Positions 36,100-48,044 of a stretch of DNA of 59,622 nucleotides are shown one piece after another; the stretch's first letter is position 1; each line of letters starts with the position of its first letter. The DNA comes from Burkholderiales bacterium (GTDB lineage Bacteria; Pseudomonadota; Gammaproteobacteria; Burkholderiales; Burkholderiaceae_C), in the NCBI GenBank assembly GCA_028871575.1, contig JAGWMW010000001.1, positions 1-59,622 on the forward strand, in the 5' to 3' direction. Under the pieces are notes generated by a model. It searched no databases, had not been told where the DNA came from, and worked only from the letters and a program-made list of their open reading frames with translations. The translations under genes and the position numbers were made by a program.

Positions 36100-38232
36100 C
36101 TAGGGCGCCGGCGAGCCCGCGGCGACGCTGCGCAGGTCCTGGGCCACGCGCCCGTCGTGCAGCGCGATCACGCGGCCCGCCGAGGCGATGGTCTCGGGTC
36201 GGTGGGCCACGATGATGCGAGTAAGCGCTAGCTGCCTGATCGAGTGATTGACGCTGCGCTCGCGCTCCACGTCGAGCGAGCTGGTGGCCTCGTCCAGCAG
36301 CAGGATCTTCGGCCGCTTGTACAGCGCCCGGGCGAGCAGGATGCGCTGCTTCTGCCCACCCGACAGCGCGGTGCCCATGTCGCCGATCAGCGTGTGATAG
36401 CCCATCGGCATGGCCTCGATTTCGTCGTGCACCGCGGCCACCCGCGCGCACTGCTCGGCCCAGGCCAGGTCGGGCGCCGGGCTGAAGAAGCTGATGTTGT
36501 CGGCGATCGAGCCCGAGAACAGCGGCTCGTCCTGCATCACCACGCCGACCTGGTCGCGCCATGCACGCAACCCCAGCCGGGCCAGCGGCACGCCACCGGC
36601 CAGCACCTCGCCCGCCACCGGCGCGTGCACGCCCAGGATGATCTTCAGCAGCGTCGTCTTGCCGCAGCCGGACGGGCCCACGATGGCCACCGACTCGCCG
36701 GGCTCGATCTTCAGGCTCAGGCCGCGCAGGATCTCGGGCTCGCCGTCGGCATAGGCAAAGCGCAGGTCGCGCAGCTCGATGCCGGCGCCGAGCTCGCGCA
36801 CGGGCGCGGCCGTGTCCACCTCGGGCGGCGTGAGCACGATGTCGGCCAGCCGCTCGCCCTGCAGCCGCAGCATGCCGACCTCCACGGCCTTGTCGATCAG
36901 GCCGCTGACCCGGGCCGCAAACGTCTCGCGGTAGGCGAAGAACGCGAACAGCATGCCCACCGAGAAGCGGCCGTCCAGCACCAGACGCGCACCAATCCAC
37001 ACCACCGCGACCCGCTCCAGGCCGAACAGCAGGCGGTGGCCCAGCGTCACCAGCAGGTCGAGCCGGCGCATGCCCAGCTGCGCGTTCATCGTCTCCACCA
37101 CCAGGCTGGCGAATCGCGACTGACGATCGCCCTGGGCGTTGAACTGCTTGATCGCCTGCACGCCGCGCAGCGATTCGAGGAAGTGGCTGGATTGCCGCGC
37201 CTCGAACACCAGCGCGTCCTCGGTGGCCCGCGCCAGCGGGCGGTACGCCAGCGCGCGCAGCAGCGCGTACAGGCCCACGGCGGCCAGCGACACGCCCGTC
37301 AGCACCCCGCTGTACAGCGCCATCATCGCCAGCGTCAGCAGCATCATCGCGCCGTCGAGCAGGGCCTCGAGGAAGCTCGTGGTCAGCGTGCGCTGGATCT
37401 GCTGCACCGCGCCGAAGCGCGACCAGATGTCGCCGATGTGCCGCTTCTCGAACCAGGCCACCGGCAGCCGCAGCAAGTGCGCGAAGACGCTCACCATCCA
37501 CTGCAGGTTCAGTGACGACGACAGCACCAGCACCGCCCAGGAGCGCGCCGCCGCCGTGGCCACCTGGATCAGCACCAGCAGCCCGAAGCCCAGGCCCAGC
37601 GTCAGCAGCAGGTCGCGATCGGCGCTGACCAGCACGTCGTCCACCACCCACTGCATGAAGAACGGGCTGGCCAGCACGAACAGCTCCAGCGCCAGCGCCA
37701 GCACCAGGATCTGCGCCAGCGCGCGCTTGAGCCCGCGCACCGGCCCGATCAACTGCCGCAGGCCGACGTGGCGCCGCTCCTGCGCGGGCTGGAAGCTGGG
37801 CGCCGGCTGCAGCTCGAGCAGCACGCCGGTGAAGTGGCGCGACAGCTCGGCCGGCCGCACCCGCCGCCGGCCCCGCGCCGGGTCGTGCACGATGGCATCG
37901 CCGCCGCGCCAGCCCACCAGCACCACGAAGTGGTTGAGGTCCCAGTGCAGGATGCAGGGCAGCTGTACTTGCGCGAGCTCGTCGAGTTCGGCCCGCAGCG
38001 CGCGCGAATTCAGCTGCAGCGCCTCGGCCATGCGCACCAGGTCGGCCAGCGTGACGCCCTTGAGCGATAGCGCGAACCGCCGTCGCAGCGCCGCCAGGTC
38101 GGTGTCCAGCCCGTGTGCCGCGGCCACCATGGCCAGGCAGGCCAGGCCGCACTCGGCGGCCTCGGTCTGCAGCAACACCGGCACCCGGCCGCGCAGGACC
38201 CCGAGCCGGGCGCCGTCGCCATCGGCCGTCAC
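36100..38232 (-). CDS. Peptidase-containing ABC transporter (C39 + TMD + NBD; CvaB/RaxB-like)
   Basis: GTG overlaps HlyD stop (GTGA); QTEAAECGLAC catalytic Cys, HWDLNHFVVL His, DP Asp; GPSGCGKTT, LSGGQKQR, LDEATS. Confidence 0.95.
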   Translation of the reverse strand: MTADGDGARLGVLRGRVPVLLQTEAAECGLACLAMVAAAHGLDTDLAALRRRFALSLKGVTLADLVRMAEALQLNSRALRAELDELAQVQLPCILHWDLNHFVVLVGWRGGDAIVHDPARGRRRVRPAELSRHFTGVLLELQPAPSFQPAQERRHVGLRQLIGPVRGLKRALAQILVLALALELFVLASPFFMQWVVDDVLVSADRDLLLTLGLGFGLLVLIQVATAAARSWAVLVLSSSLNLQWMVSVFAHLLRLPVAWFEKRHIGDIWSRFGAVQQIQRTLTTSFLEALLDGAMMLLTLAMMALYSGVLTGVSLAAVGLYALLRALAYRPLARATEDALVFEARQSSHFLESLRGVQAIKQFNAQGDRQSRFASLVVETMNAQLGMRRLDLLVTLGHRLLFGLERVAVVWIGARLVLDGRFSVGMLFAFFAYRETFAARVSGLIDKAVEVGMLRLQGERLADIVLTPPEVDTAAPVRELGAGIELRDLRFAYADGEPEILRGLSLKIEPGESVAIVGPSGCGKTTLLKIILGVHAPVAGEVLAGGVPLARLGLRAWRDQVGVVMQDEPLFSGSIADNISFFSPAPDLAWAEQCARVAAVHDEIEAMPMGYHTLIGDMGTALSGGQKQRILLARALYKRPKILLLDEATSSLDVERERSVNHSIRQLALTRIIVAHRPETIASAGRVIALHDGRVAQDLRSVAAGSPAP

Positions 38233-39482
38233 AGCCGGCTCCGCAGGCCCAGCAGGGGCTCGAACAGCCATTGCACCAGGCGCCGGCGGTCGAGCATCAC
38301 GTCGGCCTGCAGCCGCATCCCCGCGGCCAGCGGCATCGCGGCCCGGGGTGCCGGGTCCAGCGCCACCGTGATGCGGAACAGCGGCTCGCTGCCGGCCCCC
38401 ACGGCCGGCAGGGCCAGCGCCGCCAGCTCGTTGGCCGCCAGCGGCGTGCGCGACACCTGCAGCACATGGCCGGGCTGCTGCCCGAACTCCTGGTAGGGGA
38501 AGGCCTCGTAGCGCAACCGCACCGCCTGCCCGGTCCGCACGAAGCCCACGGCGCTGGACGGCGCGTACAGCTGCGCCTGCAGCCGGGCGCCGCTCGGCAC
38601 CAGCGTGGCCAGCGCCGCCGCCGGCGACACGCTCTGGCCGACCTCGGCCAGCACGGTGCTGACGGTGCCCGACTGCGGGGCCCGCACCACCACCTGCTGC
38701 GGCGCACCCTGCTCGGCCGCGTCGCGCTCGACCTGGGCCAGGTCGCGCTCCAGGCTGCCCACCCGGCCCTCGGTCTGCAGCGGCAAGTCTCGCTGCTCGC
38801 CCGCCAGGGTGTCGCGCTCGCGCAGCAAGGCGGCGCGCTGCCGGGCCAGCGTCTGCGCGGCGGCCTGCAGCCCCAGCACCTCGTCCGACTTCGCCTGCAC
38901 CTGCGCCGGCGAGATGAAGTGATCGGCCTGCAGCGACTGCAGACGCGCCAGCGCCTGCTGCGCCAGCGCCAGCCGCTGCTGCTGCAGCCTCGCCTCGATG
39001 TCGAACTGCGCCAGCTCGCCGGCCAGCGACGATTGCCGACGCTCGAGCTCGCCCTGGCGCGACTGCGCCAGGGCGCGCGCCGCCTGCACCGCCTCGCGCA
39101 GGCTGCGCCGGCGCTCGTCCAGGCTGCGGCTCACCTGGGCCTGCGCCTCGGCGCCAAAGGTCGGTCGGTCCAGATCGAGCACGAAGAGCACGTCGCCGGC
39201 CCGCACCGGCTGGCCTTCGGCCGCGCGCCGCTCGACGACCGTGCCGCTGACCGAGGGCACGAGCCGGATCAGGCCGCGGTCGGGCACGAGCACGCCGGCC
39301 ACGGTCGCCTTGCGCGTGTACTGCGCCAGGCTCACGAAGGCCCCCAGGGCCAGGAGGGCGCAGACGGCGCCGGCGGTCAGCCAGCTCAGCGCCAGCGGCC
39401 GCACCAGTTGCACCGGGCCCAGCCATTGCTGCCGCTGGGCCGCGATCGCCTCGGGTCGGAACAACGGGCGCGCGGAGGCCAT
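38229..39482 (-). CDS. HlyD-family membrane fusion protein (CvaA/RaxA-like)
   Basis: LFRPEA N-terminus, single TM, long coiled coil, APQSG, LRYEAFPYQEFG, GMRLQA...WLFEPL. Confidence 0.93.
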   Translation of the reverse strand: MASARPLFRPEAIAAQRQQWLGPVQLVRPLALSWLTAGAVCALLALGAFVSLAQYTRKATVAGVLVPDRGLIRLVPSVSGTVVERRAAEGQPVRAGDVLFVLDLDRPTFGAEAQAQVSRSLDERRRSLREAVQAARALAQSRQGELERRQSSLAGELAQFDIEARLQQQRLALAQQALARLQSLQADHFISPAQVQAKSDEVLGLQAAAQTLARQRAALLRERDTLAGEQRDLPLQTEGRVGSLERDLAQVERDAAEQGAPQQVVVRAPQSGTVSTVLAEVGQSVSPAAALATLVPSGARLQAQLYAPSSAVGFVRTGQAVRLRYEAFPYQEFGQQPGHVLQVSRTPLAANELAALALPAVGAGSEPLFRITVALDPAPRAAMPLAAGMRLQADVMLDRRRLVQWLFEPLLGLRSRL

Positions 39483-39487
39483 GGACG

Positions 39488-39518
39488 AAAAAATGCGGGC
39501 CGCTTCAGGCGGCCCGCA
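39488..39518 (-). terminator. Intrinsic terminator between precursor gene and HlyD gene
   Basis: TGCGGGCCGC-N5-GCGGCCCGCA perfect 10-bp stem plus T6 on minus strand. Confidence 0.8.
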
Positions 39519-39578: not shown

Positions 39579-39740
39579 TCAGCCCACGCGCGGCAGCGGC
39601 TCCGGCACCGAGGCACCGCCGCTCACGCGCTTCAGGCTGGCAGCCTCCAGCGGCTGGGGGCGGCGCGGCTCGGCGGCCTGGGCGGCCTGACGGGCCTGGG
39701 TGTGGCGGGACTTGCTGAACAGGGATTGCAGACGCTGCAT
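39579..39740 (-). CDS. Double-glycine leader precursor peptide (53 aa), not in the ORF track
   Basis: GGAG SD; MQRLQSLFSKSRHTQARQAAQAAEPRRPQPLEAASLKRVSGG|ASVPEPLPRVG; directly upstream of HlyD and C39 exporter. Confidence 0.85.
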   Translation of the reverse strand: MQRLQSLFSKSRHTQARQAAQAAEPRRPQPLEAASLKRVSGGASVPEPLPRVG

Positions 39741-39815
39741 GACTCGGCTCCATCCAAATCAGGCCCGGGAATCCGAACCCATGGAAAGATTGAATCAGTC
39801 GCATCGCGCGCGCGT

Positions 39816-39835
39816 AACTGTCAAGTCTTACAGGG
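39816..39835 (-). promoter_or_regulatory. lux box upstream of precursor gene
   Basis: CCCTGTAAGACTTGACAGTT (minus) = CTGT-N8-ACAG dyad; -10-like CAATCT 23 nt downstream. Confidence 0.78.
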
Positions 39836-40640: not shown

Positions 40641-40660
40641 CCCTGACAGGATTGACAGCT
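40641..40660 (+). promoter_or_regulatory. lux box upstream of DUF4902-like gene, 42 nt from the luxR start
   Basis: CCCTGACAGGATTGACAGCT, 15/20 identical to the box at 39816-39835; -10-like AAAGAT 22 nt downstream. Confidence 0.75.
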
Positions 40661-40694
40661 TTCGCAGGCTCGATGCTTGGCCAAAGATACGGCC

Positions 40695-41108
40695 ATGCAG
40701 AACATCGAAGCAGCAGCCCCACTCTCCAGCCTCCCTACCACGGCCTGGTCTTTGCGTTCTTGGCCCCCCCTATTGTGGCAGGCCGGCGAGCGTTCGCACG
40801 TGCGCTTTCAGCACCTGAGCACGCGCGTGACGCTGGGTCTTTGCGCACCCGGGCCCGCGGCCGGACAGACCGTCTGGGCAGCCTCGGCGGCCGACGGCGA
40901 GGCCGGCATGGCCTGGGACTGGGTGCTCATCGCGCGCGGCGTGGTCGCGATGGCCGACCCCATGTCCGTCATCACCAACGTGCGCCTGCTCGGCGAAGAA
41001 GGCGAAGTGCTGACGGCGGTGGAGTCGGCCCGCTTCCTCAACGAGTTCGTGCGTGCCCTGCCCTGGCAGCAGGAAGTGCAGCGCGCGCTCGGCCGGCAGC
41101 TGAACTGA
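40695..41108 (+). CDS. DUF4902-like protein
   Basis: GQTVW, GMAWDW, DPMSVITNVRL and LPWQQEV resemble the recalled DUF4902 pattern; divergent from luxR. Confidence 0.7.
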   Translation: MQNIEAAAPLSSLPTTAWSLRSWPPLLWQAGERSHVRFQHLSTRVTLGLCAPGPAAGQTVWAASAADGEAGMAWDWVLIARGVVAMADPMSVITNVRLLGEEGEVLTAVESARFLNEFVRALPWQQEVQRALGRQLN

Positions 41109-41194: not shown

Positions 41195-42361
41195 CTACCG
41201 CAGCGCCACGCTGCGCAGCACGCGCACCACGTAAGCCAGCGCCAGCGCGGTCAGCAGCAGCCCCACCGCCACCCCGGGCAGCACCAGCGCCGGCGCCAGC
41301 GGCTCGCCCTTGAGCACGCGGCCCATCAGCGTGGTCTGCGCCAGCGCCGGCACCCAGTAGTGCCAGGGCCGGGCGCCCTCCTGGCCGAAAAGCGAGATCA
41401 GCGGCAGCAGCGACAGCCCCAGCACCAGCACGGTTGCGCCGGCCTGCGCCTCCTTGAACGTGCGGCAGCGGATCGCGATGGCCATCAGCAGCGCCGACAC
41501 CGCCCCTGCCAGCGGCAGCAGCAGGGCCACGAAGGCCAGCGCCTCGCGCGGGCCGAAGCGGAACATCGCCGCCAGCAGCTCGCTGCGCAGCAGCCACTGC
41601 CCGGGCAGGAAGCTCAGGCAGGACAGCACCGCGATCAAGAGGCCCACGCTGGCCACGGCCGCCCACTTGCCCAGCACGAGCGCGGCGCGCGGCGCCGGTT
41701 TCGTCAGCAAGGGCTCGAGCGAGCCGCGCTCGCGCTCGCCGGCCGTGCTGTCCAGCGCCGCGTTCAGGGCGCCGTACAGCACCGCCATCAGCACGAAGTA
41801 CGGCACCATCGCGCTGAGCTGCGCGGCCCGCGTGGCGGGGTCGGCGAGGTCGATCTCCTCGATGCGCACCGCCTGCAGCGCCGCCGGCGCCACCCCGCGC
41901 GCGGCCAGCCGCAGCACCGCCTGCTCGCGGTCGAAGCCGCGCAGCAGCCGCAGCAGAGCGCCCACCCCGGCCTGCGCGCGCGGGTTGCCCGAGCTCGACA
42001 CCACCTGCAGCCGCGGCGCGTGCCCGTCCACCAGGCCGGCCTCGAAGCCGGGCGGCACCACCAGCACCGGCTCGCCCAGGCGGCTGCTTTCGAGCTGCTG
42101 CTCGTAGTCGGCCGGCGCGGGCCGCAGCTCGCAGGTCTGGCGCTCGAAGTAGTTGCGCAGGCTGGGCGCCTGCGCCAGGCCCTGCACGACGACGACACGG
42201 TCTTCGGCGCGCCTCTCCAGCCCCGCCACCAGGTTCGAGACCAGCAGCAGCACCAGCGGCCCGATCGCCACCGAGCTGAGCAGCACCGTCGCCAGCGTGC
42301 GCCGGTCGCGCAGGGCGTCGACCAGCTCCTTGGCGTAGACGACCCAGAAGGCGCCCCTCAT
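41195..42361 (-). CDS. ABC-2 type exporter permease (NatB-like)
   Basis: KELVDALRDRRT, AGERERGSLEPLL, multiple TM segments. Confidence 0.88.
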   Translation of the reverse strand: MRGAFWVVYAKELVDALRDRRTLATVLLSSVAIGPLVLLLVSNLVAGLERRAEDRVVVVQGLAQAPSLRNYFERQTCELRPAPADYEQQLESSRLGEPVLVVPPGFEAGLVDGHAPRLQVVSSSGNPRAQAGVGALLRLLRGFDREQAVLRLAARGVAPAALQAVRIEEIDLADPATRAAQLSAMVPYFVLMAVLYGALNAALDSTAGERERGSLEPLLTKPAPRAALVLGKWAAVASVGLLIAVLSCLSFLPGQWLLRSELLAAMFRFGPREALAFVALLLPLAGAVSALLMAIAIRCRTFKEAQAGATVLVLGLSLLPLISLFGQEGARPWHYWVPALAQTTLMGRVLKGEPLAPALVLPGVAVGLLLTALALAYVVRVLRSVALR

Positions 42362-43131
42362 GGCGCCGCCTGCGGCGCGGCCGCGGCCTGCCCGTACGCC
42401 AGTCGCACGAAGGTCTCCTCGAAGTCGGCCTGCCCGGTGCGCGCGGCCAGCTCGCTCAGCGTGCCCTCGGCCACGGCACGCCCGCCGGCCATCACCACCA
42501 CCCGGTCGCACAGGCGCTCGACCTCCTGCATCACGTGGCTGGAGAACACGATGCACTTGCCCTGCTCGTCGCGCAGCCGGCGCAGGGTCTGGCGCAGCGC
42601 GCGCGTGGCCAGCACGTCCAGGCCGTTGGTGGGCTCGTCGAGCACGATGTTCGGCGGATCGTGCACCAGCGCCCGCGCCAGCGCGGTCTTCATGCGCTCG
42701 CCCTGGCTGAAGCCCTCGGTGCGGCGGTCCAGCAGCTCCCGCATCGCCAGCATGTCGGCCAGGGCCTCGGCCCGACGCCGAGCCACCACCGCCGGCAGGC
42801 CGTGCAGGCGGCCGTAATAGACGATGTTCTCGCGCGCGGTCAGCCGCGGGTACAGCCCGCGCGCGTCGCTGAGCACGCCCATCCGCGCCTGCGCGGCGGC
42901 CGGCGCGCCGGCCACGTCGATGCCGTCCACCCGCACCTGCCCGGCGTCGGCCCCGATCAGGCCGGCGGCGATGCGCAGCGTGGTCGTCTTGCCGGCGCCG
43001 TTGGGGCCGAGCAGCCCGGTGATGCAGCCATCGGCGGCCGTGAAGCTCAGGCCGTCGACGGCCTGCACCGGCGGCGCCCGGCGCCCTGGGCCGGAGGCGA
43101 ACTGCTTGCACAGGGCCTGCACCTCGATCAC
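42358..43131 (-). CDS. ABC exporter ATP-binding protein (NatA-like)
   Basis: GPNGAGKTT, FSQGE, LDEPTNGLD, SSH; GTGA overlap. Confidence 0.9.
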   Translation of the reverse strand: MIEVQALCKQFASGPGRRAPPVQAVDGLSFTAADGCITGLLGPNGAGKTTTLRIAAGLIGADAGQVRVDGIDVAGAPAAAQARMGVLSDARGLYPRLTARENIVYYGRLHGLPAVVARRRAEALADMLAMRELLDRRTEGFSQGERMKTALARALVHDPPNIVLDEPTNGLDVLATRALRQTLRRLRDEQGKCIVFSSHVMQEVERLCDRVVVMAGGRAVAEGTLSELAARTGQADFEETFVRLAYGQAAAAPQAAP

Positions 43132-44669
43132 GGACGGTCTCCGTCGTGCACCGGCACGAAGGCCGGCGGGCGCGGCAGCCGGGCCGCGCAGCCGGCATCG
43201 AGCCGCAGCGCGCGGGCATCGCTGGCGGCGTCGATGAACCGGTAGACCAGGTCGCGCAGGCAGGGGATGGCCAGCAGCCCATGGCCGGCCTGGGCGACCG
43301 TCACCTGGCGCGCCATCGGCCCCAGCGCGCGGGCCACCTCGGCGGCATGCCGCGGTGGCGTCGCCGGGTCGGCGCCGCCGGCCAGCAGCAAGGCCGGCAC
43401 GCGGGCCACCGGCAGGCGGTAGAAGTCGGCCGGCACCGGGCCGCGGGGCCAGTCCGCGCACACCTGGCGGTACTGCTGCGCAAACGCCTGGCCGAAATCG
43501 GCGCCGGGCAGGTCGCCGGCCTGGTCCAGGCGGGGTGCATCCTCGCTGCACACGACCGAGAAGTGCATGCCTTCGTAGAGCTTGCCCGGCCCGCCTTCGG
43601 TGGCCGCCGACAGACCCACCAGCGGCTCGAAGCGGCCCTGCGCGGCCTCGTGCAGCGCCAGCGGCAGCCCCGCCGCGAGCCAGGGCGCGTACAGCGGGCC
43701 GCGCACCAGGCCCAGCACCATGTCGCGCGTGAACGTCAGGCGCTGCACCTGCCCGGTCAGCGGCTGCGCCACGCTCGCCTCGAGCGGCAGCGAGGCCAGC
43801 AGGGCCCGCCAGTCGGCCCGCAGCGTGGGGTAGGCGCGGTGGCAGTCGGCATCGCCCTCGCAGGCCGCCAGCAGGCCGTCCAGCGCCGCCTGGTTGTCGG
43901 TCGAGAACGAGGCCGGCAGCACCATGCCAGGCGGTGCCACGCCGTCCAGCACCACCCGCCGCACGTGCTGCGGGTACTGGCGCAGGTAGTCGAGCGCCGC
44001 GCGCGTGCCGTAGGAGCCGCCCACCAGATTCAGCCGGGCCGCCCCGATCGCCCGGCGCACGGCCTCGGTGTCCTGGCTCGCGATCCAGGTGGCATAGAAG
44101 CGCAGGTCGCCCCAGGGCAGCTTTTGCAGCGCGCTGCGGCAGGCCTGCATCCGCGCCGGCACCCGCGCTGGATCGAGCTGCTCCGACAGCGGCGCCGTCG
44201 GCCGGCCTGCGGGGCAGGCCAGCGGCGCGCTCAGGCCGGTGCCGCGCTGGTCGATCAGCAGGATGTCGCGCCGGTTCGACAGCCGCGCCAGCATCGCGTG
44301 GATCGGTCCCGCCAGCTCGATGGCGCTCTGCCCTGGCCCGCCCGCGAAGAACACCACCGGGTCGGGCTGCGGGTTGCGAGCCAGCGCCGGCAGCAGCGCG
44401 TAATGCACCTGGATCTGCGGCCCGAGCGGCCGCGCCGGGTCCAGCGGCCGCTGCACCTGACCGCACAGCGCGGCGTGCTCGAGGCCGTCGAGCCGGCAGG
44501 GCGTCGGGGCCTGGGCGCGGGCCCCTGCCGTCGCGGCCAGCAGGGGCAGCGCCGCGGCCAGGGCCAGGGCCAGGCCGGCGGCGCGCGAGCGCCGGGGCGG
44601 GCGCGAGGGCGGGCTCAAGGGCGGGCTCAAGGGCGGGCTCAAGGGCGGGCTCAAGGGCGAGCGCGCCAC
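43128..44669 (-). CDS. Secreted alpha/beta hydrolase, S33/TAP-like aminopeptidase family; start uncertain
   Basis: Signal peptide; GGPG, DQRGTG, GGSYGT nucleophile elbow, DPATP, GHG. Confidence 0.85.
   Translation of the reverse strand: MARSPLSPPLSPPLSPPLSPPSRPPRRSRAAGLALALAAALPLLAATAGARAQAPTPCRLDGLEHAALCGQVQRPLDPARPLGPQIQVHYALLPALARNPQPDPVVFFAGGPGQSAIELAGPIHAMLARLSNRRDILLIDQRGTGLSAPLACPAGRPTAPLSEQLDPARVPARMQACRSALQKLPWGDLRFYATWIASQDTEAVRRAIGAARLNLVGGSYGTRAALDYLRQYPQHVRRVVLDGVAPPGMVLPASFSTDNQAALDGLLAACEGDADCHRAYPTLRADWRALLASLPLEASVAQPLTGQVQRLTFTRDMVLGLVRGPLYAPWLAAGLPLALHEAAQGRFEPLVGLSAATEGGPGKLYEGMHFSVVCSEDAPRLDQAGDLPGADFGQAFAQQYRQVCADWPRGPVPADFYRLPVARVPALLLAGGADPATPPRHAAEVARALGPMARQVTVAQAGHGLLAIPCLRDLVYRFIDAASDARALRLDAGCAARLPRPPAFVPVHDGDRP
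44607..44654. repeat. 12-bp tandem repeat x4 (TTGAGCCCGCCC on minus; encodes LSPP)
   Basis: Four exact units at 44607, 44619, 44631, 44643. Confidence 0.92.
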
Positions 44670-44674
44670 CGCGG

Positions 44675-45040
44675 TCAGGCCAGCAGCCTGCGCAGCTCGC
44701 CGCTGTCGATGAGGCGCTGCAGGTCGTCGGCGCCGCCGACCAGCATGCCCTTGACGAAGACCATCGGCAGCGTCGGCCAGCCGGTCCACATCTTCAGCGC
44801 ATTGCGCTGGCGCCAGGCGCCGAAGTAGCTGCCGTACTCGAGGTAAGTGTGAGCGATGCCGGCGGCGGCCAGCGAGCGCCGCGCGCGGCGCGGGTACGGG
44901 TTCTGCGCCATCCCCACCACCACCACCGCGTCGCGCGCCACGGCGGCCTGGACCTCGCGCAGCGTGGCCTCGTGGTGGCGGGCGACCTGCTCGCGCACGG
45001 CCGGATGGATCTGCGATTCGTCGAGGATGGGGCGTGGCAT
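44675..45040 (-). CDS. Glutaredoxin-like protein lacking cysteine
   Basis: WPTLPMVFVKG.LVGGADD Grx motif; NPYP at the active-site position. Confidence 0.8.
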   Translation of the reverse strand: MPRPILDESQIHPAVREQVARHHEATLREVQAAVARDAVVVVGMAQNPYPRRARRSLAAAGIAHTYLEYGSYFGAWRQRNALKMWTGWPTLPMVFVKGMLVGGADDLQRLIDSGELRRLLA

Positions 45041-45188
45041 GGGGCGTCGGTCTCCTGCGCCGGAATCTAACCGAGCCCCGCGACGCGAGGCCGGCACCCC
45101 GCATCCGCGGGGGCCGGGCGCAACTTTGCACGCCGGGCGCTGCGGCCGGCCTCCGCGCCGCGCGCCGCCGGGGTCGGCCGCGCCTACG

Positions 45189-48044
45189 ATGCCGGCCGTG
45201 TCCGCATCCCCCCGCCTTCCGAGCCGGCCTCCGCGCCCCCGTCGAGTCGCCCTGGCGCTGGCCGTGGCCGGGGCCGGGGCCGCGCTGGCCCTGCTGGCCG
45301 GCCCGGCCCGGGCCGACAACGCCGACCAGGCCGCGCGCCTGTACGACGACGCACTGACCCGCTACGAGAAGCACGACCTGGCCGGTGCGGCGCTGCAGCT
45401 CAAGAGCGCGCTGCAGCTCGACCGCAAGCAGCTCCCGGTGCATGTGCTGCTGGGCAAGGTGCTGCTGGACAGCGGCCAGCCCGCGGCCGCCGAGGCCGAG
45501 TTCACCCAGGCGCTGGACCTGGGCGTGAACCGGGCCGAGGTGGTCGTGCTGCTGGCGCGCAGCCTGGTCGCGCAAGGCCGCGAGCAGGAAGTGATCGACG
45601 ACGCGCGCTTCGCCCTCGCGGGCCTGCCCGACGCCACGCTGGCCCCGCTGCTGCTGATCAAGGCCGGCTGCTACGCCGATCTCGGCCAGGCCCGCGCCGC
45701 GCTCGACGCGGTGGCCGCGGCGCGCCAGGCCGACCCGCGCTCGCCCGAGGGTTGGCTGGCCGAGGTGCCGATCCGCATCCGGGCCCGCCAGTTCGCCGAG
45801 GCCCGCGCCGCGGTCGAGCGCGCGCGCGCGCTGGCGCCGGGCTCGGCCGCGGTGCATTACGCGCTTGCCTCGATCCTGCATGTCGCGGGCGACGAAGCCG
45901 GCGCGCTGGCCGCCTACGACCAGACCCTCGCGGCCGACCCCGGCCATGTCGACGCCCGGGTGGCGCGCGCCGGCATCTACGTCGACATGAAGCGCGACGC
46001 CGACGCCGAGCGCGACATCGCCGTGCTCACGCGCGATGCGGCACTGGAGCCGCGCGGCTGGTATCTCGGCGCGCTGCTGGCCGAGCGTGCCGGCCGCACC
46101 GCGGCCATGAAGTCGGCCCTGCGGAAAGTGACCGAGCTGCTCGACCCGGTGCCGCTGGGCTTCATCCGCTACCGGCCGCAGATGCTGCTGCTGAACGGCC
46201 AGGCCCACTACGGCCTGGGCGAGAACGAGAAGGCGCTGCCCTACTTCGAGGCCTTCCAGCGCGTGCAGCCGGGCACGCCGGTGGCCAAGGTGCTGGGCAG
46301 CCTGTACCTGGTCAACGGCAACCGCGACCGCGCCGTGGACGTGCTCGAGGACTACCTGCGCGGCACCCCGGGCGATGCCCAGGCCATGGCGCTGCTGGCC
46401 TCGGCCTACATGGCCAAGGGGCGCAACGCGCGCGCCGCCGACCTGATGCAGCAGGCGCTGCAACGCAACGACGCCCCCGAGCTCTACGCGGCCTACGGAC
46501 TGAGCCTGATGCGATCGGGCCGCAGCGCCGACGCCCGGCAGCAGCTCGAGGCCGCGTTCCGCAAGGACCCGCAGCAGACCCAGGCCGGCTACGCGCTGGT
46601 CGGCCTGTACCTGCGCGCCGGCCAGCTCGACAAGGCGCAGGCCGTGGCCGGCACGCTGGTGCGCCAGCAGCCCGCCAACCCCAGCCTGCAGAACCTGCTG
46701 GGCATGGTGCTGGCCAGCCGGCGCGACGTGGCCGGCGCGCGCACCGCCTTCGAGCAGGCGCTCAAGCTCGACCCCACGCTCACCCAGGCCAGCCTGAACC
46801 TGGCCCGGCTCGAGGTGGCGGCGGCGCACTTCGACCGCGCGCAGGGCCTGCTCGACGGCGTGCTGGCCAAGGCCGCCGGCAACACCGAGGCCATGGTCGA
46901 GCAGGCCGTGCTGGCCGAGCGCCGCGGGCACCAGCCCGATGCGCTGCGCTGGCTCACCAAGGCCTGGGACACCGCCGGCGCGAGCGACCTGCGCGCCAGC
47001 CTGGCCCTGGTCGACCTGCAGATGCGCCTGGGCCGGCCCGACCTGGCGCTGAAGGTGGCGCAGCAGGTCGCGGCCAGCCGCAGCGACAACCTGCCCGCCC
47101 TGCTGGCGCTCACCCGGGCACAACTGGCCAGCCACGACGCCGCCGGCGCCCGCGTCACGCTCACCGCGGCCACCCGCTATGCCGGATTCGAGGCGCCGGT
47201 GCAGGTCGAGATCGCCCTGCTGCAGCAGGCCGCAGGCAACCTGGCCGGTGCGGCCTACAGCCTGGACAAGGCGCTGTCGGCCCAGCCCGAGTACCTGCCC
47301 GCCCAGGCCCTGATGGCCGAGATCCAGACGCGCCAGGGAGACTTCGCCGGCGCCGAGCAGCGAGCGCGGCACCTCGTGGCCAAGGCCCCCAGGCTGGCCA
47401 TCGGCTACAGCCTGCTCGGCGACCTGGCCCTGGCGCGGCAGCAGCCCGAGCCGGCGCTGGCCGCCTACCGCAAGGCCCACGCCGTGCAGCCCTCGACCGA
47501 CACCCTGCAGCGCCTGGCCGGCTTGCTGTCGGCGCTCGACCCGGCGGCTGGCCTGGCCCTCGTCGAATCCTGGGTCCGGGCCCATCCCGCCGACGCCGTC
47601 GCCACCAACCTGCTGGCGCAGGCCTACGTGCGGCGCGGCCAATTCGCGCCGGCGCGCGATGTCTACCTGCGCCTGCGCGCCGCGCGGCCCCAGGACCCCG
47701 GCGTCATGAACGATCTGGCCAACGTCCAGCTGGCGCTGAACGACCCGCAGGCCCTGGCCACCGCCGAGCAGGCCCTGGCCGCCGACCCGGGCAATCCGCT
47801 GGTCATCGACACGGCCGGCTGGGCCGCCTTCCGCGCCGGCAAGGCCGACCGCGCAGCCCAGCTGCTGCGCGATGCCCGCCTGCGCGATCCCGGCAACGGC
47901 ACCATCCGCTACCACCTGGCCGCCGTGCTGGCGCAGACCGGCCGCCGCGCCGAAGCGCGTGACGAGCTGCGCACGGCACTGAAGGCGCAGGCCGATTTCG
48001 ACGGTCGCGGGGCGGCCAAGGCCCTGCTGGCGACCCTCGAGTGA
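45189..48044 (+). CDS. prsT: PEP-CTERM system TPR-repeat protein PrsT
   Basis: Signal peptide; AALQLKSALQ N-terminus; about 950 aa of TPRs ending DTAGW...YHLA; adjacent to a PEP-CTERM gene. Confidence 0.82.
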   Translation: MPAVSASPRLPSRPPRPRRVALALAVAGAGAALALLAGPARADNADQAARLYDDALTRYEKHDLAGAALQLKSALQLDRKQLPVHVLLGKVLLDSGQPAAAEAEFTQALDLGVNRAEVVVLLARSLVAQGREQEVIDDARFALAGLPDATLAPLLLIKAGCYADLGQARAALDAVAAARQADPRSPEGWLAEVPIRIRARQFAEARAAVERARALAPGSAAVHYALASILHVAGDEAGALAAYDQTLAADPGHVDARVARAGIYVDMKRDADAERDIAVLTRDAALEPRGWYLGALLAERAGRTAAMKSALRKVTELLDPVPLGFIRYRPQMLLLNGQAHYGLGENEKALPYFEAFQRVQPGTPVAKVLGSLYLVNGNRDRAVDVLEDYLRGTPGDAQAMALLASAYMAKGRNARAADLMQQALQRNDAPELYAAYGLSLMRSGRSADARQQLEAAFRKDPQQTQAGYALVGLYLRAGQLDKAQAVAGTLVRQQPANPSLQNLLGMVLASRRDVAGARTAFEQALKLDPTLTQASLNLARLEVAAAHFDRAQGLLDGVLAKAAGNTEAMVEQAVLAERRGHQPDALRWLTKAWDTAGASDLRASLALVDLQMRLGRPDLALKVAQQVAASRSDNLPALLALTRAQLASHDAAGARVTLTAATRYAGFEAPVQVEIALLQQAAGNLAGAAYSLDKALSAQPEYLPAQALMAEIQTRQGDFAGAEQRARHLVAKAPRLAIGYSLLGDLALARQQPEPALAAYRKAHAVQPSTDTLQRLAGLLSALDPAAGLALVESWVRAHPADAVATNLLAQAYVRRGQFAPARDVYLRLRAARPQDPGVMNDLANVQLALNDPQALATAEQALAADPGNPLVIDTAGWAAFRAGKADRAAQLLRDARLRDPGNGTIRYHLAAVLAQTGRRAEARDELRTALKAQADFDGRGAAKALLATLE

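What the first reader, a model, noticed from the sequence alone, without database searches (positions are those of the whole stretch)
39579..39740. Hidden 53-aa precursor with RaxX-like leader and 11-aa Pro-rich core
Seen: ORF with GGAG SD encoding ...RRPQPLEAASLKRVSGG|ASVPEPLPRVG, with hydrophobic residues at -4, -7 and -12 as in GG leaders. Recalled, not aligned: the Xanthomonas RaxX leader ends in a similar RPEPLDQRLWKHVGG. The core has no Tyr or Cys and no sulfotransferase is present, so it is probably an unmodified short peptide. It looks too short and polar for a class II microcin and more like a signal.
Basis: partly seen in the sequence, partly recalled or inferred. Interest (0 to 1): 0.85.

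Follow-up and report, generated by a model that had tools for sequence, protein, structure and literature searches.

The report
Self-made peptide signal for LuxR receptors
The tiny gene is real and belongs to a family of short peptides encoded where the signal-synthase gene normally sits in a quorum-sensing circuit; the peptide's letters change in step with the pocket of the neighbouring LuxR receptor, so these Gram-negative bacteria likely use a self-made peptide instead of a lactone as their cell-to-cell signal.

Summary
The ORF is real (minus strand, 39740-39579). It is not a RaxX relative; only the export leader is RaxX-like. It lies in a cassette: rsaM-like gene <- box -> luxR -> box -> peptide -> hlyD -> C39 exporter. 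This is the layout of a lactone quorum-sensing circuit with the peptide gene in the place of luxI. Of 114 related loci, 109 have the GG precursor. The conserved part is not the 11-aa core but a unit x-P-x-x-x-W, often repeated 2-5 times. The window's LPRVG belongs to a W-less clade, and its TGA is genuine. A second LuxR clade with no peptide exporter nearby carries the same unit in tiny leaderless ORFs (45 of 59 loci; 0 of 1180 shuffles), so the unit follows LuxR, not the exporter. Three unit positions each co-vary with a different LuxR residue that matches a LasR pocket position (100/F101, 126/A127, 69/A70), on trees built without those columns (p 0.002-0.016). RsaM and HlyD controls show no such tracking. 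Best reading: a peptide autoinducer for a lactone-type LuxR receptor. Ten literature searches found no description. No experiment exists yet, and import and outputs are unknown.

The parts
39579..39740 (-). Precursor gene, 53 aa: leader 1-42 (39740-39615), core 43-53 (39614-39582)
39582..39596 (-). Conserved unit LPRVG (W-less form of x-P-x-x-x-W), the predicted mature signal
   Evidence: the mature ends are inferred
39748..39751 (-). GGAG ribosome-binding site
   Evidence: the same motif in relatives
39816..39835 (-). lux-box-like palindrome (CT-N12-AG), 95 nt before the precursor ATG
   Evidence: present in 110 of 114 loci; top PWM site of the genome
39885..40598 (-). LuxR solo (Autoind_bind + GerE), the predicted receptor; Y56, W60, T75 and S129 equivalents changed, D73, W88 and Y93 equivalents kept
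40641..40660 (-). Second box between luxR and the rsaM-like gene
   Evidence: present in 101 of 114 loci
40695..41108 (+). RsaM-like protein (DUF4902/PF16245), divergent from luxR; an upstream TTG at 40677 is an alternative start
   Evidence: 23.9 bits, cut-off 25; a relative 28.8; profile hits PDB 4o2h, E 6e-4; found in 211 of 229 loci
39494..39518 (-). Terminator-like hairpin with T run between the peptide gene and hlyD; would let peptide mRNA exceed exporter mRNA (inferred)
   Evidence: 2 found, 1.1 expected by chance: weak
38229..39482 (-). HlyD-type periplasmic adaptor
36100..38232 (-). Peptidase-containing ABC exporter (C39 + ABC) with Q22, C28, H101, D117; its GTG overlaps the hlyD stop
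   Evidence: residue numbers as reported for RaxB in 10.1101/442517
41195..44621 (-). Neighbouring operon (TAP-like alpha/beta hydrolase 44621-43128, ABC ATPase 43128-42358, ABC-2 permease to 41195): candidate trimming peptidase and second exporter, link unproven

Best explanation
The gene encodes a GG-leader precursor whose C-terminal unit (here LPRVG; x-P-x-x-x-W in most relatives) is likely the self-made signal of the adjacent LuxR, forming a predicted peptide quorum-sensing loop built on a lactone-type receptor. Shown: cassette order, two conserved boxes, an intact C39 triad, the unit's conservation and repetition, its persistence without the exporter, and its position-specific co-variation with LuxR pocket residues. 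Inferred: (1) LuxR bound to the unit activates the box promoter of the peptide-hlyD-exporter operon (positive feedback); (2) the exporter cuts after GG and secretes the core through HlyD and a TolC; (3) peptidases trim spacers to the 5-7-residue unit, the proline at position 2 stopping aminopeptidases, and repeats give several signals per precursor; (4) the unit re-enters by an oligopeptide importer and binds the LuxR pocket, with position 1 near residue 126, position 3 near 100 and position 5 near 69; (5) RsaM damps the loop. Unit variants would act as strain-specific dialects.
For: The precursor sits where luxI sits in rsaM-luxR-luxI circuits. Full-length luxI was found in 2 of the 36 luxR-carrying family genomes and 4 of the 114 genus genomes, and not in G000. 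The unit persists across different precursor designs: GG + exporter (229 loci with a unit), tiny ORFs with an amphipathic-looking stretch before or after the unit (45 of 59 paralogue loci; 0 of 1180 shuffles, 1 of 4552 genome stretches), and bare 10-19-aa ORFs (L006, L007, L139). 111 of 229 precursors repeat the unit. Co-variation: N/H at position 3 goes with K100 in 54 of 57, while basic position 3 never has K/R100 (0 of 124). That rule was fixed in a note before the new loci were analysed and held there (0 of 44 against 47 of 77). G at position 1 has F126 in 61 of 61, other residues in 6 of 169; T at position 5 has G69 in 53 of 61, G at position 5 in 4 of 103. On a tree from RsaM plus LuxR outside columns 31-130, independent pairs give 9.4:0, 8.3:0 and 10.5:0.1 (median p 0.004, 0.008, 0.002), each column top of 398 tests; this holds after dereplication to 141 rows (p 0.004, 0.016, 0.002). 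For the position-3 trait, RsaM and HlyD columns share at most 7 changes against 14-15 of 17 for K100. Residues 69 and 126 align with LasR A70 and A127, which are ligand-contact residues in 10.1101/269001; residue 100 aligns with F101, listed as a ligand contact in simulations in PMC12567134. Big-small pairs are complementary. G000 has TolC-family and family-5 peptide-binding proteins.
Against: There are no expression, cleavage or reporter data. Co-variation shows contact, not sign: the peptide could inhibit. The K100 rule is not seen in the second LuxR clade (L176 and L181 have H or N at position 3 with I100). The window's own pair (G at position 5 with G69) departs from the majority rule for W-ending units, and its unit lacks the W. 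A 540-700 Da peptide is about twice the mass of a long-chain lactone (recalled), so the pocket must be more open than LasR's. No importer lies in the cassette. No shared target gene was found: only the two cassette boxes score well in G000, and extra boxes in complete genomes precede unrelated genes. The position-1 and position-5 traits and the motif patterns were chosen after seeing the data. The trees are quick searches; the careful search did not finish. The new loci were found with a K100-type query, which enriches that type. Bare 10-19-aa forms have no evident export route. 8 of 59 paralogue loci showed no unit ORF on either strand.
Confidence: 0.7

Rival explanations
1. The unit binds the LuxR pocket but not as an extracellular autoinducer: it is a competitive inhibitor (negative feedback on a LuxR activated by something else), or it acts inside the cell as a memory switch, with export serving only to remove it.
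For: All the co-variation evidence fits equally well. Bare mini-ORFs without exporter exist. The D73, W88 and Y93 equivalents are kept in 229 of 230 LuxRs, so a small ligand may still bind. No importer lies in the cassette.
Against: A dedicated adaptor and exporter in most loci, multiple repeats of the unit (111 of 229) and 118 different units are what a released, strain-specific signal would show. No synthase for another ligand travels with the cassette.
Confidence: 0.17
2. The peptide is an output (a mini-bacteriocin, or a signal for another receptor such as a sensor kinase), switched on by a LuxR solo that senses an unrelated molecule; the co-variation comes from linkage of neighbouring genes. 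This is the logic of the phage LuxR-smORF modules.
For: The GG leader with C39 exporter is the bacteriocin export route. In PMC10432266 (passages) a LuxR-driven small ORF acts on another protein. LuxR and peptide genes are adjacent and are inherited together.
Against: Linkage would affect all linked columns alike, but each peptide position picks one different pocket column (cross-controls share 4-9 changes against 12-18), and RsaM and HlyD do not track the position-3 trait. No immunity-like gene lies in the window's cassette, and the unit is far shorter than class II microcins (size recalled).
Confidence: 0.07
3. In this lineage the gene is a decayed or cheater allele: TGG became TGA and the W-less peptide is inactive.
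For: The TGA is exactly at the W position; 92 of 109 cores contain W.
Against: 17 W-less precursors form one clade (1 change on the tree). Several repeat the W-less unit twice, including internally where no stop is involved. Codon changes are mostly synonymous, and the exporter triad is intact.
Confidence: 0.04
4. A RaxX-like modified peptide that mimics a host hormone.
For: Leader likeness to the RaxX model in 9 of 102 relatives; the same exporter type.
Against: No Tyr in the core (Tyr in 9 of 229 units); no sulfotransferase in the neighbourhoods annotated and no PF13469 match in G000, 83.6% complete; the unit occurs without any GG leader.
Confidence: 0.02

Closest known systems
LuxI/LuxR lactone circuits with RsaM; the divergent rsaM-luxR-solo pairs (type 6) of PMC10710839
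   Same: LuxR fold, CT-N12-AG boxes, RsaM-like modulator, gene order. The review lists divergent rsaM-luxR solos in Pelomonas, Kinneretia, Albitalea, Thauera and Xenophilus, probably this cassette.
   Different: No luxI; a peptide gene and exporter stand in its place. The word 'peptide' occurs 0 times in that review's main text.
RRNPP peptide systems of Bacillota (Rap-Phr, Rgg-SHP, ComR-XIP)
   Same: Predicted logic: a small propeptide next to a cytoplasmic receptor, export, trimming, re-import, strain-specific variants (recalled; search listings). The tiny amphipathic forms resemble SHP/XIP precursors (recalled).
   Different: The receptor is a lactone-binding-fold LuxR, not a TPR protein; the host has two membranes; export is by GG/C39.
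PipR/OryR plant-responsive LuxR solos (PMC4981722, PMC10134790)
   Same: A LuxR solo that ignores lactones, responds to imported peptide-like material (Ser-His-Ser at 1 mM) and has peptidases nearby.
   Different: Their signal is external (later an ethanolamine derivative) and not encoded by the cell; the diagnostic Tyr-to-Trp change is absent here.
RaxX-RaxSTAB of Xanthomonas (10.1101/442517, PMC6637879)
   Same: GG leader with -4/-7/-12 hydrophobic residues; adaptor plus C39 exporter with Q22/C28/H101/D117.
   Different: No Tyr, no sulfotransferase; under a LuxR box; the unit recurs without the leader.
XRE-LuxR-smORF modules of Aeromonas phages (PMC10432266)
   Same: A LuxR drives an unannotated small ORF.
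   Different: There LuxR binds C4-HSL and the small protein inactivates a cI repressor; here the peptide co-varies with the LuxR pocket and is exported.

Membership tests
RaxX family | GG leader with hydrophobic -4/-7/-12 | tested here: met
RaxX family | Adjacent adaptor and C39 exporter with Cys-His-Asp triad | tested here: met
RaxX family | Core Tyr for sulfation | tested here: not met
   no Tyr in the core; Tyr in 9 of 229 units
RaxX family | Linked sulfotransferase RaxST | tested here: not met
   none in the cassette; PF13469 not found in G000, 83.6% complete
RaxX family | Match to NCBIfam NF038382 | tested here: not met
   window peptide has no hit at E<=0.1; 9 of 102 relatives hit weakly, best 9.1e-6
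Class II microcins | GG leader and CvaAB-type export | tested here: met
Class II microcins | Mature core of several kDa and a neighbouring immunity gene (recalled) | tested here: not met
   core 11 aa, family median 18, range 6-48; no extra gene between peptide and hlyD in the window
Class II microcins | Antibacterial activity | not testable with these tools
   needs an assay
LuxI/LuxR lactone circuits | LuxR with autoinducer-binding and HTH domains, and a lux-type box | tested here: met
LuxI/LuxR lactone circuits | Cognate luxI | tested here: not met
   the search found full-length luxI in 8 of 151 family genomes, so it works
LuxI/LuxR lactone circuits | Lactone-head contacts Y56, W60, D73, T75, W88, Y93, S129 | tested here: not met
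   D73, W88, Y93 kept; Y56 mostly T, W60 mostly Y/F (W in 10 of 230), T75 V/I, S129 G
RRNPP peptide systems | Propeptide gene adjacent to its cytoplasmic receptor gene | tested here: met
   adjacency shown; the receptor role is inferred from co-variation
RRNPP peptide systems | TPR-fold receptor | tested here: not met
   LuxR fold
RRNPP peptide systems | Export, trimming and re-import of the peptide | not testable with these tools
   exporter present; 6 family-5 binding proteins elsewhere in G000
OryR/PipR LuxR solos | Trp in place of the conserved Tyr | tested here: not met
   window Y63; family mostly F/Y; taking the Tyr as LasR Y64 is recalled
OryR/PipR LuxR solos | Flanking proline iminopeptidase gene | tested here: inconclusive
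   a hydrolase four genes away hits TIGR01249 at E 6e-12, far below the cut-off

The most novel reading that the evidence does not exclude
A new class of quorum sensing: Gram-negative Burkholderiaceae have re-purposed the lactone-binding LuxR fold to read a ribosomally made 5-7-residue peptide, with a readable three-position ligand-pocket code, over a hundred dialects, at least three precursor designs, and tandem extra LuxR copies that may eavesdrop on other strains.
Probability: 0.65. Interest if true: 0.95.

Novelty: categorically new. Interest (0 to 1): 0.9.

Why it matters
Peptide autoinducers are regarded as a Gram-positive design and LuxR receptors as small-molecule sensors. If true, this joins the two and gives a ligand to a large set of LuxR solos: matches in 114 of 151 genomes of this genus and 93 of 401 of the family at a stricter cut-off. 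It gives RsaM a context without luxI, which may help to explain how RsaM works. It also offers a natural library of peptide-receptor pairs with a pocket code that could be used as orthogonal genetic switches. The test is cheap: short unmodified peptides and a reporter.

Tried and rejected
Complex prediction of the LuxR ligand domain with the precursor's last 30 residues was never run because the queue was full, so there is no structural verdict. Expression: no RNA holder listed. Plus-strand reading of the given coordinates: no start codon or stop, rejected. TGA as an assembly error or as recoded W: rejected by contigs and the sister genome, and because hlyD and luxR also end in TGA. First co-variation test on 108 rows was not significant (4 supported pairs); on 229 rows with only part of the pocket dropped, median p was 0.06 and 0.03; clearer only with the RsaM-based tree. 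No LuxR column could be tied to the W-less state because it arose once. Position 4 gave no clear partner. Regulon search found no shared target. No relative in viral contigs or plasmids. Not found in 299 other genomes of the class (one more was not scored). Seven distant LuxRs in other families of the order were found; the nearest three to four showed no unit ORF in the short stretches held. Pfam and NCBIfam name no family for the precursor; 71 database homologues are unnamed or 'hypothetical'; the ESM Atlas gave unnamed clusters only. The sigma-70 scan found no promoter. Hydrolase/ABC-2 link: present in 33 of 36 luxR-carrying and 18 of 115 other family genomes, but kin are not independent, so it is kept as a lead.

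Full report
Observation. The ORF reads on the minus strand, 39740-39579, as 53 aa with GGAG 7 nt upstream, a leader ending V39-S-G-G42 with L36 and L31, and an 11-aa core ending LPRVG. The stop is genuine: no substitution is read there in eight runs, one contig is identical to the window over the whole gene, and population alleles show V45I, G53S and in-frame 9-nt leader deletions. The nearest sister genome (LuxR 93% identical) ends the same way, with 9 synonymous and 2 non-synonymous codon changes in the last 28 codons.

Context. On the minus strand the order is luxR (40598-39885; Autoind_bind + GerE), the peptide gene, a hairpin with T run, hlyD (39482-38229), a C39 exporter (38232-36100) and mnmG. 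The exporter has Q22, C28, H101 and D117, the numbers given for RaxB in 10.1101/442517 (passages). A divergent gene (40695-41108) hits DUF4902/PF16245, and a profile of 24 relatives hits PDB 4o2h at E 6e-4. PMC10710839 (parts 1-2 of 4 and a term search) identifies PF16245 as RsaM, a modulator always found beside luxI or luxR. It lists divergent rsaM-luxR-solo pairs in related genera and never uses the word 'peptide'. Two CT-N12-AG palindromes lie at 39835-39816 and 40660-40641; their likeness to lux boxes is recalled. They occur in 110 and 101 of 114 unique loci, and they are the only strong sites in G000. The best named relatives are titled Rubrivivax, Ideonella, Aquincola, Rhizobacter and Leptothrix.

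The family. The LuxR matches at E<=1e-40 in 36 of 151 family and 114 of 151 genus genomes. Of 114 unique close loci (25 duplicates dropped), 109 have a GG precursor, 86 of them 92-97 nt after the box. Of the other five, three lack hlyD and carry bare 10-19-aa ORFs with the unit, one contig ends and one has nothing. A further 161 loci gave 133 usable ones (23 duplicates, 5 too short): 126 GG, 3 tiny, 4 none; 121 of the 126 had a recognisable unit. Over 229 precursors the constant element is x-P-x-x-x-W: 118 different units, 111 precursors with 2-5 copies, 171 with a unit at the very end. The window belongs to 17 W-less rows that form one clade. Full-length luxI occurs in 2 of the 36 and 4 of the 114 luxR-carrying genomes and was not found in G000, which is 83.6% complete.

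The unit follows LuxR. A second LuxR clade (39-57% identical; SH-aLRT 100) also has the divergent rsaM-like gene but no hlyD or C39 gene in the stretches fetched. In 45 of 59 such loci a box, often of a different sequence, or a GGAG site precedes a tiny ORF (16-34 aa; one 9-aa alternative start) carrying [L/F/I]-P-x-x-G-G-W, with an amphipathic-looking stretch before or after it. The same pattern appears in 0 of 1180 shuffles and 1 of 4552 genome stretches (the pattern was tuned on these loci). Four more loci have such an ORF on the other strand and two more under relaxed rules; 8 have none.

Co-variation with the pocket. Window LuxR numbering is LasR minus 1. Y56, W60, T75 and S129 are mostly replaced while D73, W88 and Y93 are kept; their roles in lactone binding, and those of A70 and A127 in tail binding, come from 10.1101/269001 (passages), and F101 from simulation passages of PMC12567134. 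Residues 55-72 are the variable part of the protein (entropy 2.2 against 0.4 bits in the HTH). In the first 108 rows K/R100 went only with a non-basic position 3 (17 of 28 against 0 of 80), but the supported pairs were too few. The rule was written down and held in new loci (47 of 77 against 0 of 44; found with a K100-type query). In all rows N/H3 has K100 in 54 of 57; G1 has F126 in 61 of 61 against 6 of 169; T5 has G69 in 53 of 61, and G5 in 4 of 103. On a tree from RsaM and LuxR outside columns 31-130 (211 rows with RsaM), supported independent pairs go 9.4:0, 8.3:0 and 10.5:0.1 in the predicted direction (median p 0.004, 0.008, 0.002), each column ranking first of 398 tests. With 141 dereplicated rows the result stands, and cross-pairs share 4-9 changes against 12-18 (the careful search did not finish, so the quick tree was used). 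RsaM and HlyD columns, tested for the position-3 trait, share at most 7 changes. Against: the K100 rule fails in two second-clade loci, the window's G5/G69 pair is atypical, and the position-1 and position-5 traits were picked after seeing the data.

Mechanism. I infer a loop: LuxR plus unit activates the box promoter; the exporter cuts after GG and secretes the core; peptidases trim it to the unit; an importer returns it; RsaM damps the loop. G000 has TolC-family and six family-5 binding proteins, none in the cassette. The neighbouring hydrolase and ABC-2 operon flanks both LuxR clades in either orientation and is a candidate for trimming and for exporting leaderless forms, but it may be just a shared chromosomal site. 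The sign of the effect, the mature ends, import and outputs are unknown; extra boxes in complete genomes precede varied genes, including further luxR or peptide genes.

Comparison. It works like an RRNPP system on a lactone-circuit chassis, but it fails membership of RRNPP (no TPR), lactone circuits (no luxI), RaxX (no Tyr, no sulfotransferase) and microcins (size). PipR responds to an external tripeptide at 1 mM (PMC4981722, passages); the table of characterised LuxR solos in PMC10134790 (passages) shows no self-encoded peptide ligand in the parts seen. PMC10432266 and PMC6637879 were seen as passages, 10.64898/2026.07.23.740290 as abstract and outline. No supplements were opened; the RsaM review's genome lists could bear on how often this cassette was already counted. 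Ten searches, including six unit sequences as text (one irrelevant hit), found no description; the library lacks most subscription journals. Two unchecked notes of this scan describe small peptide genes behind LuxR boxes in prophages; they are leads, not support.

Verdict. A real, conserved gene; most likely the signal precursor of an undescribed peptide-LuxR quorum-sensing system (0.7), binding to LuxR in some role about 0.85. Interest 0.9.

Noticed in passing
L161 (6497-9974) and L162 (7540-11774): Tandem arrays of four full luxR copies plus a fragment (L161) and five copies (L162) beside a single peptide gene, plus a second hlyD in L161; possible eavesdropping receptors for other dialects.
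   Followed up: no
L151, L182, L199, L207, L378: Tiny unit-bearing ORFs on the opposite strand; in L151 and L378 they lie between two convergent luxR genes, like the prophage cases in the scan's earlier notes.
   Followed up: partly
L006, L007, L139, L307: Close-type LuxR with the same box but no exporter, and bare 10-20-aa ORFs ending in the unit: the smallest form of the system.
   Followed up: partly
window 39584, 39606-39608, 39684-39699: Population alleles of the precursor (G53S, V45I, in-frame 9-nt leader deletions) in mine-drainage and soil runs; G53S changes the predicted signal itself.
   Followed up: partly
window 41195-44621: TAP-like hydrolase with a signal-peptide-like start, ABC ATPase and ABC-2 permease; the cassette sits between this operon and mnmG in either orientation across many genera.
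   Followed up: partly
L023/L161, between peptide gene and hlyD: An extra 168-aa membrane-protein-like ORF, absent from most loci.
   Followed up: no
L355: LuxR with an internal TAG beside an intact precursor in an 80%-complete genome whose hydrolase also shows an internal stop.
   Followed up: no
L191: Two near-identical tiny peptide genes in tandem behind one box.
   Followed up: no
L371, L374, L376, L381: Strong extra boxes before a small ORF with an ABC-2 transporter, an ABC exporter-like gene, a long repetitive protein and another luxR: candidate species-specific outputs.
   Followed up: partly
window 44856-48044 (+): PrsT-like TPR lipoprotein of PEP-CTERM systems (TIGR02917 above cut-off); probably unrelated.
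   Followed up: no
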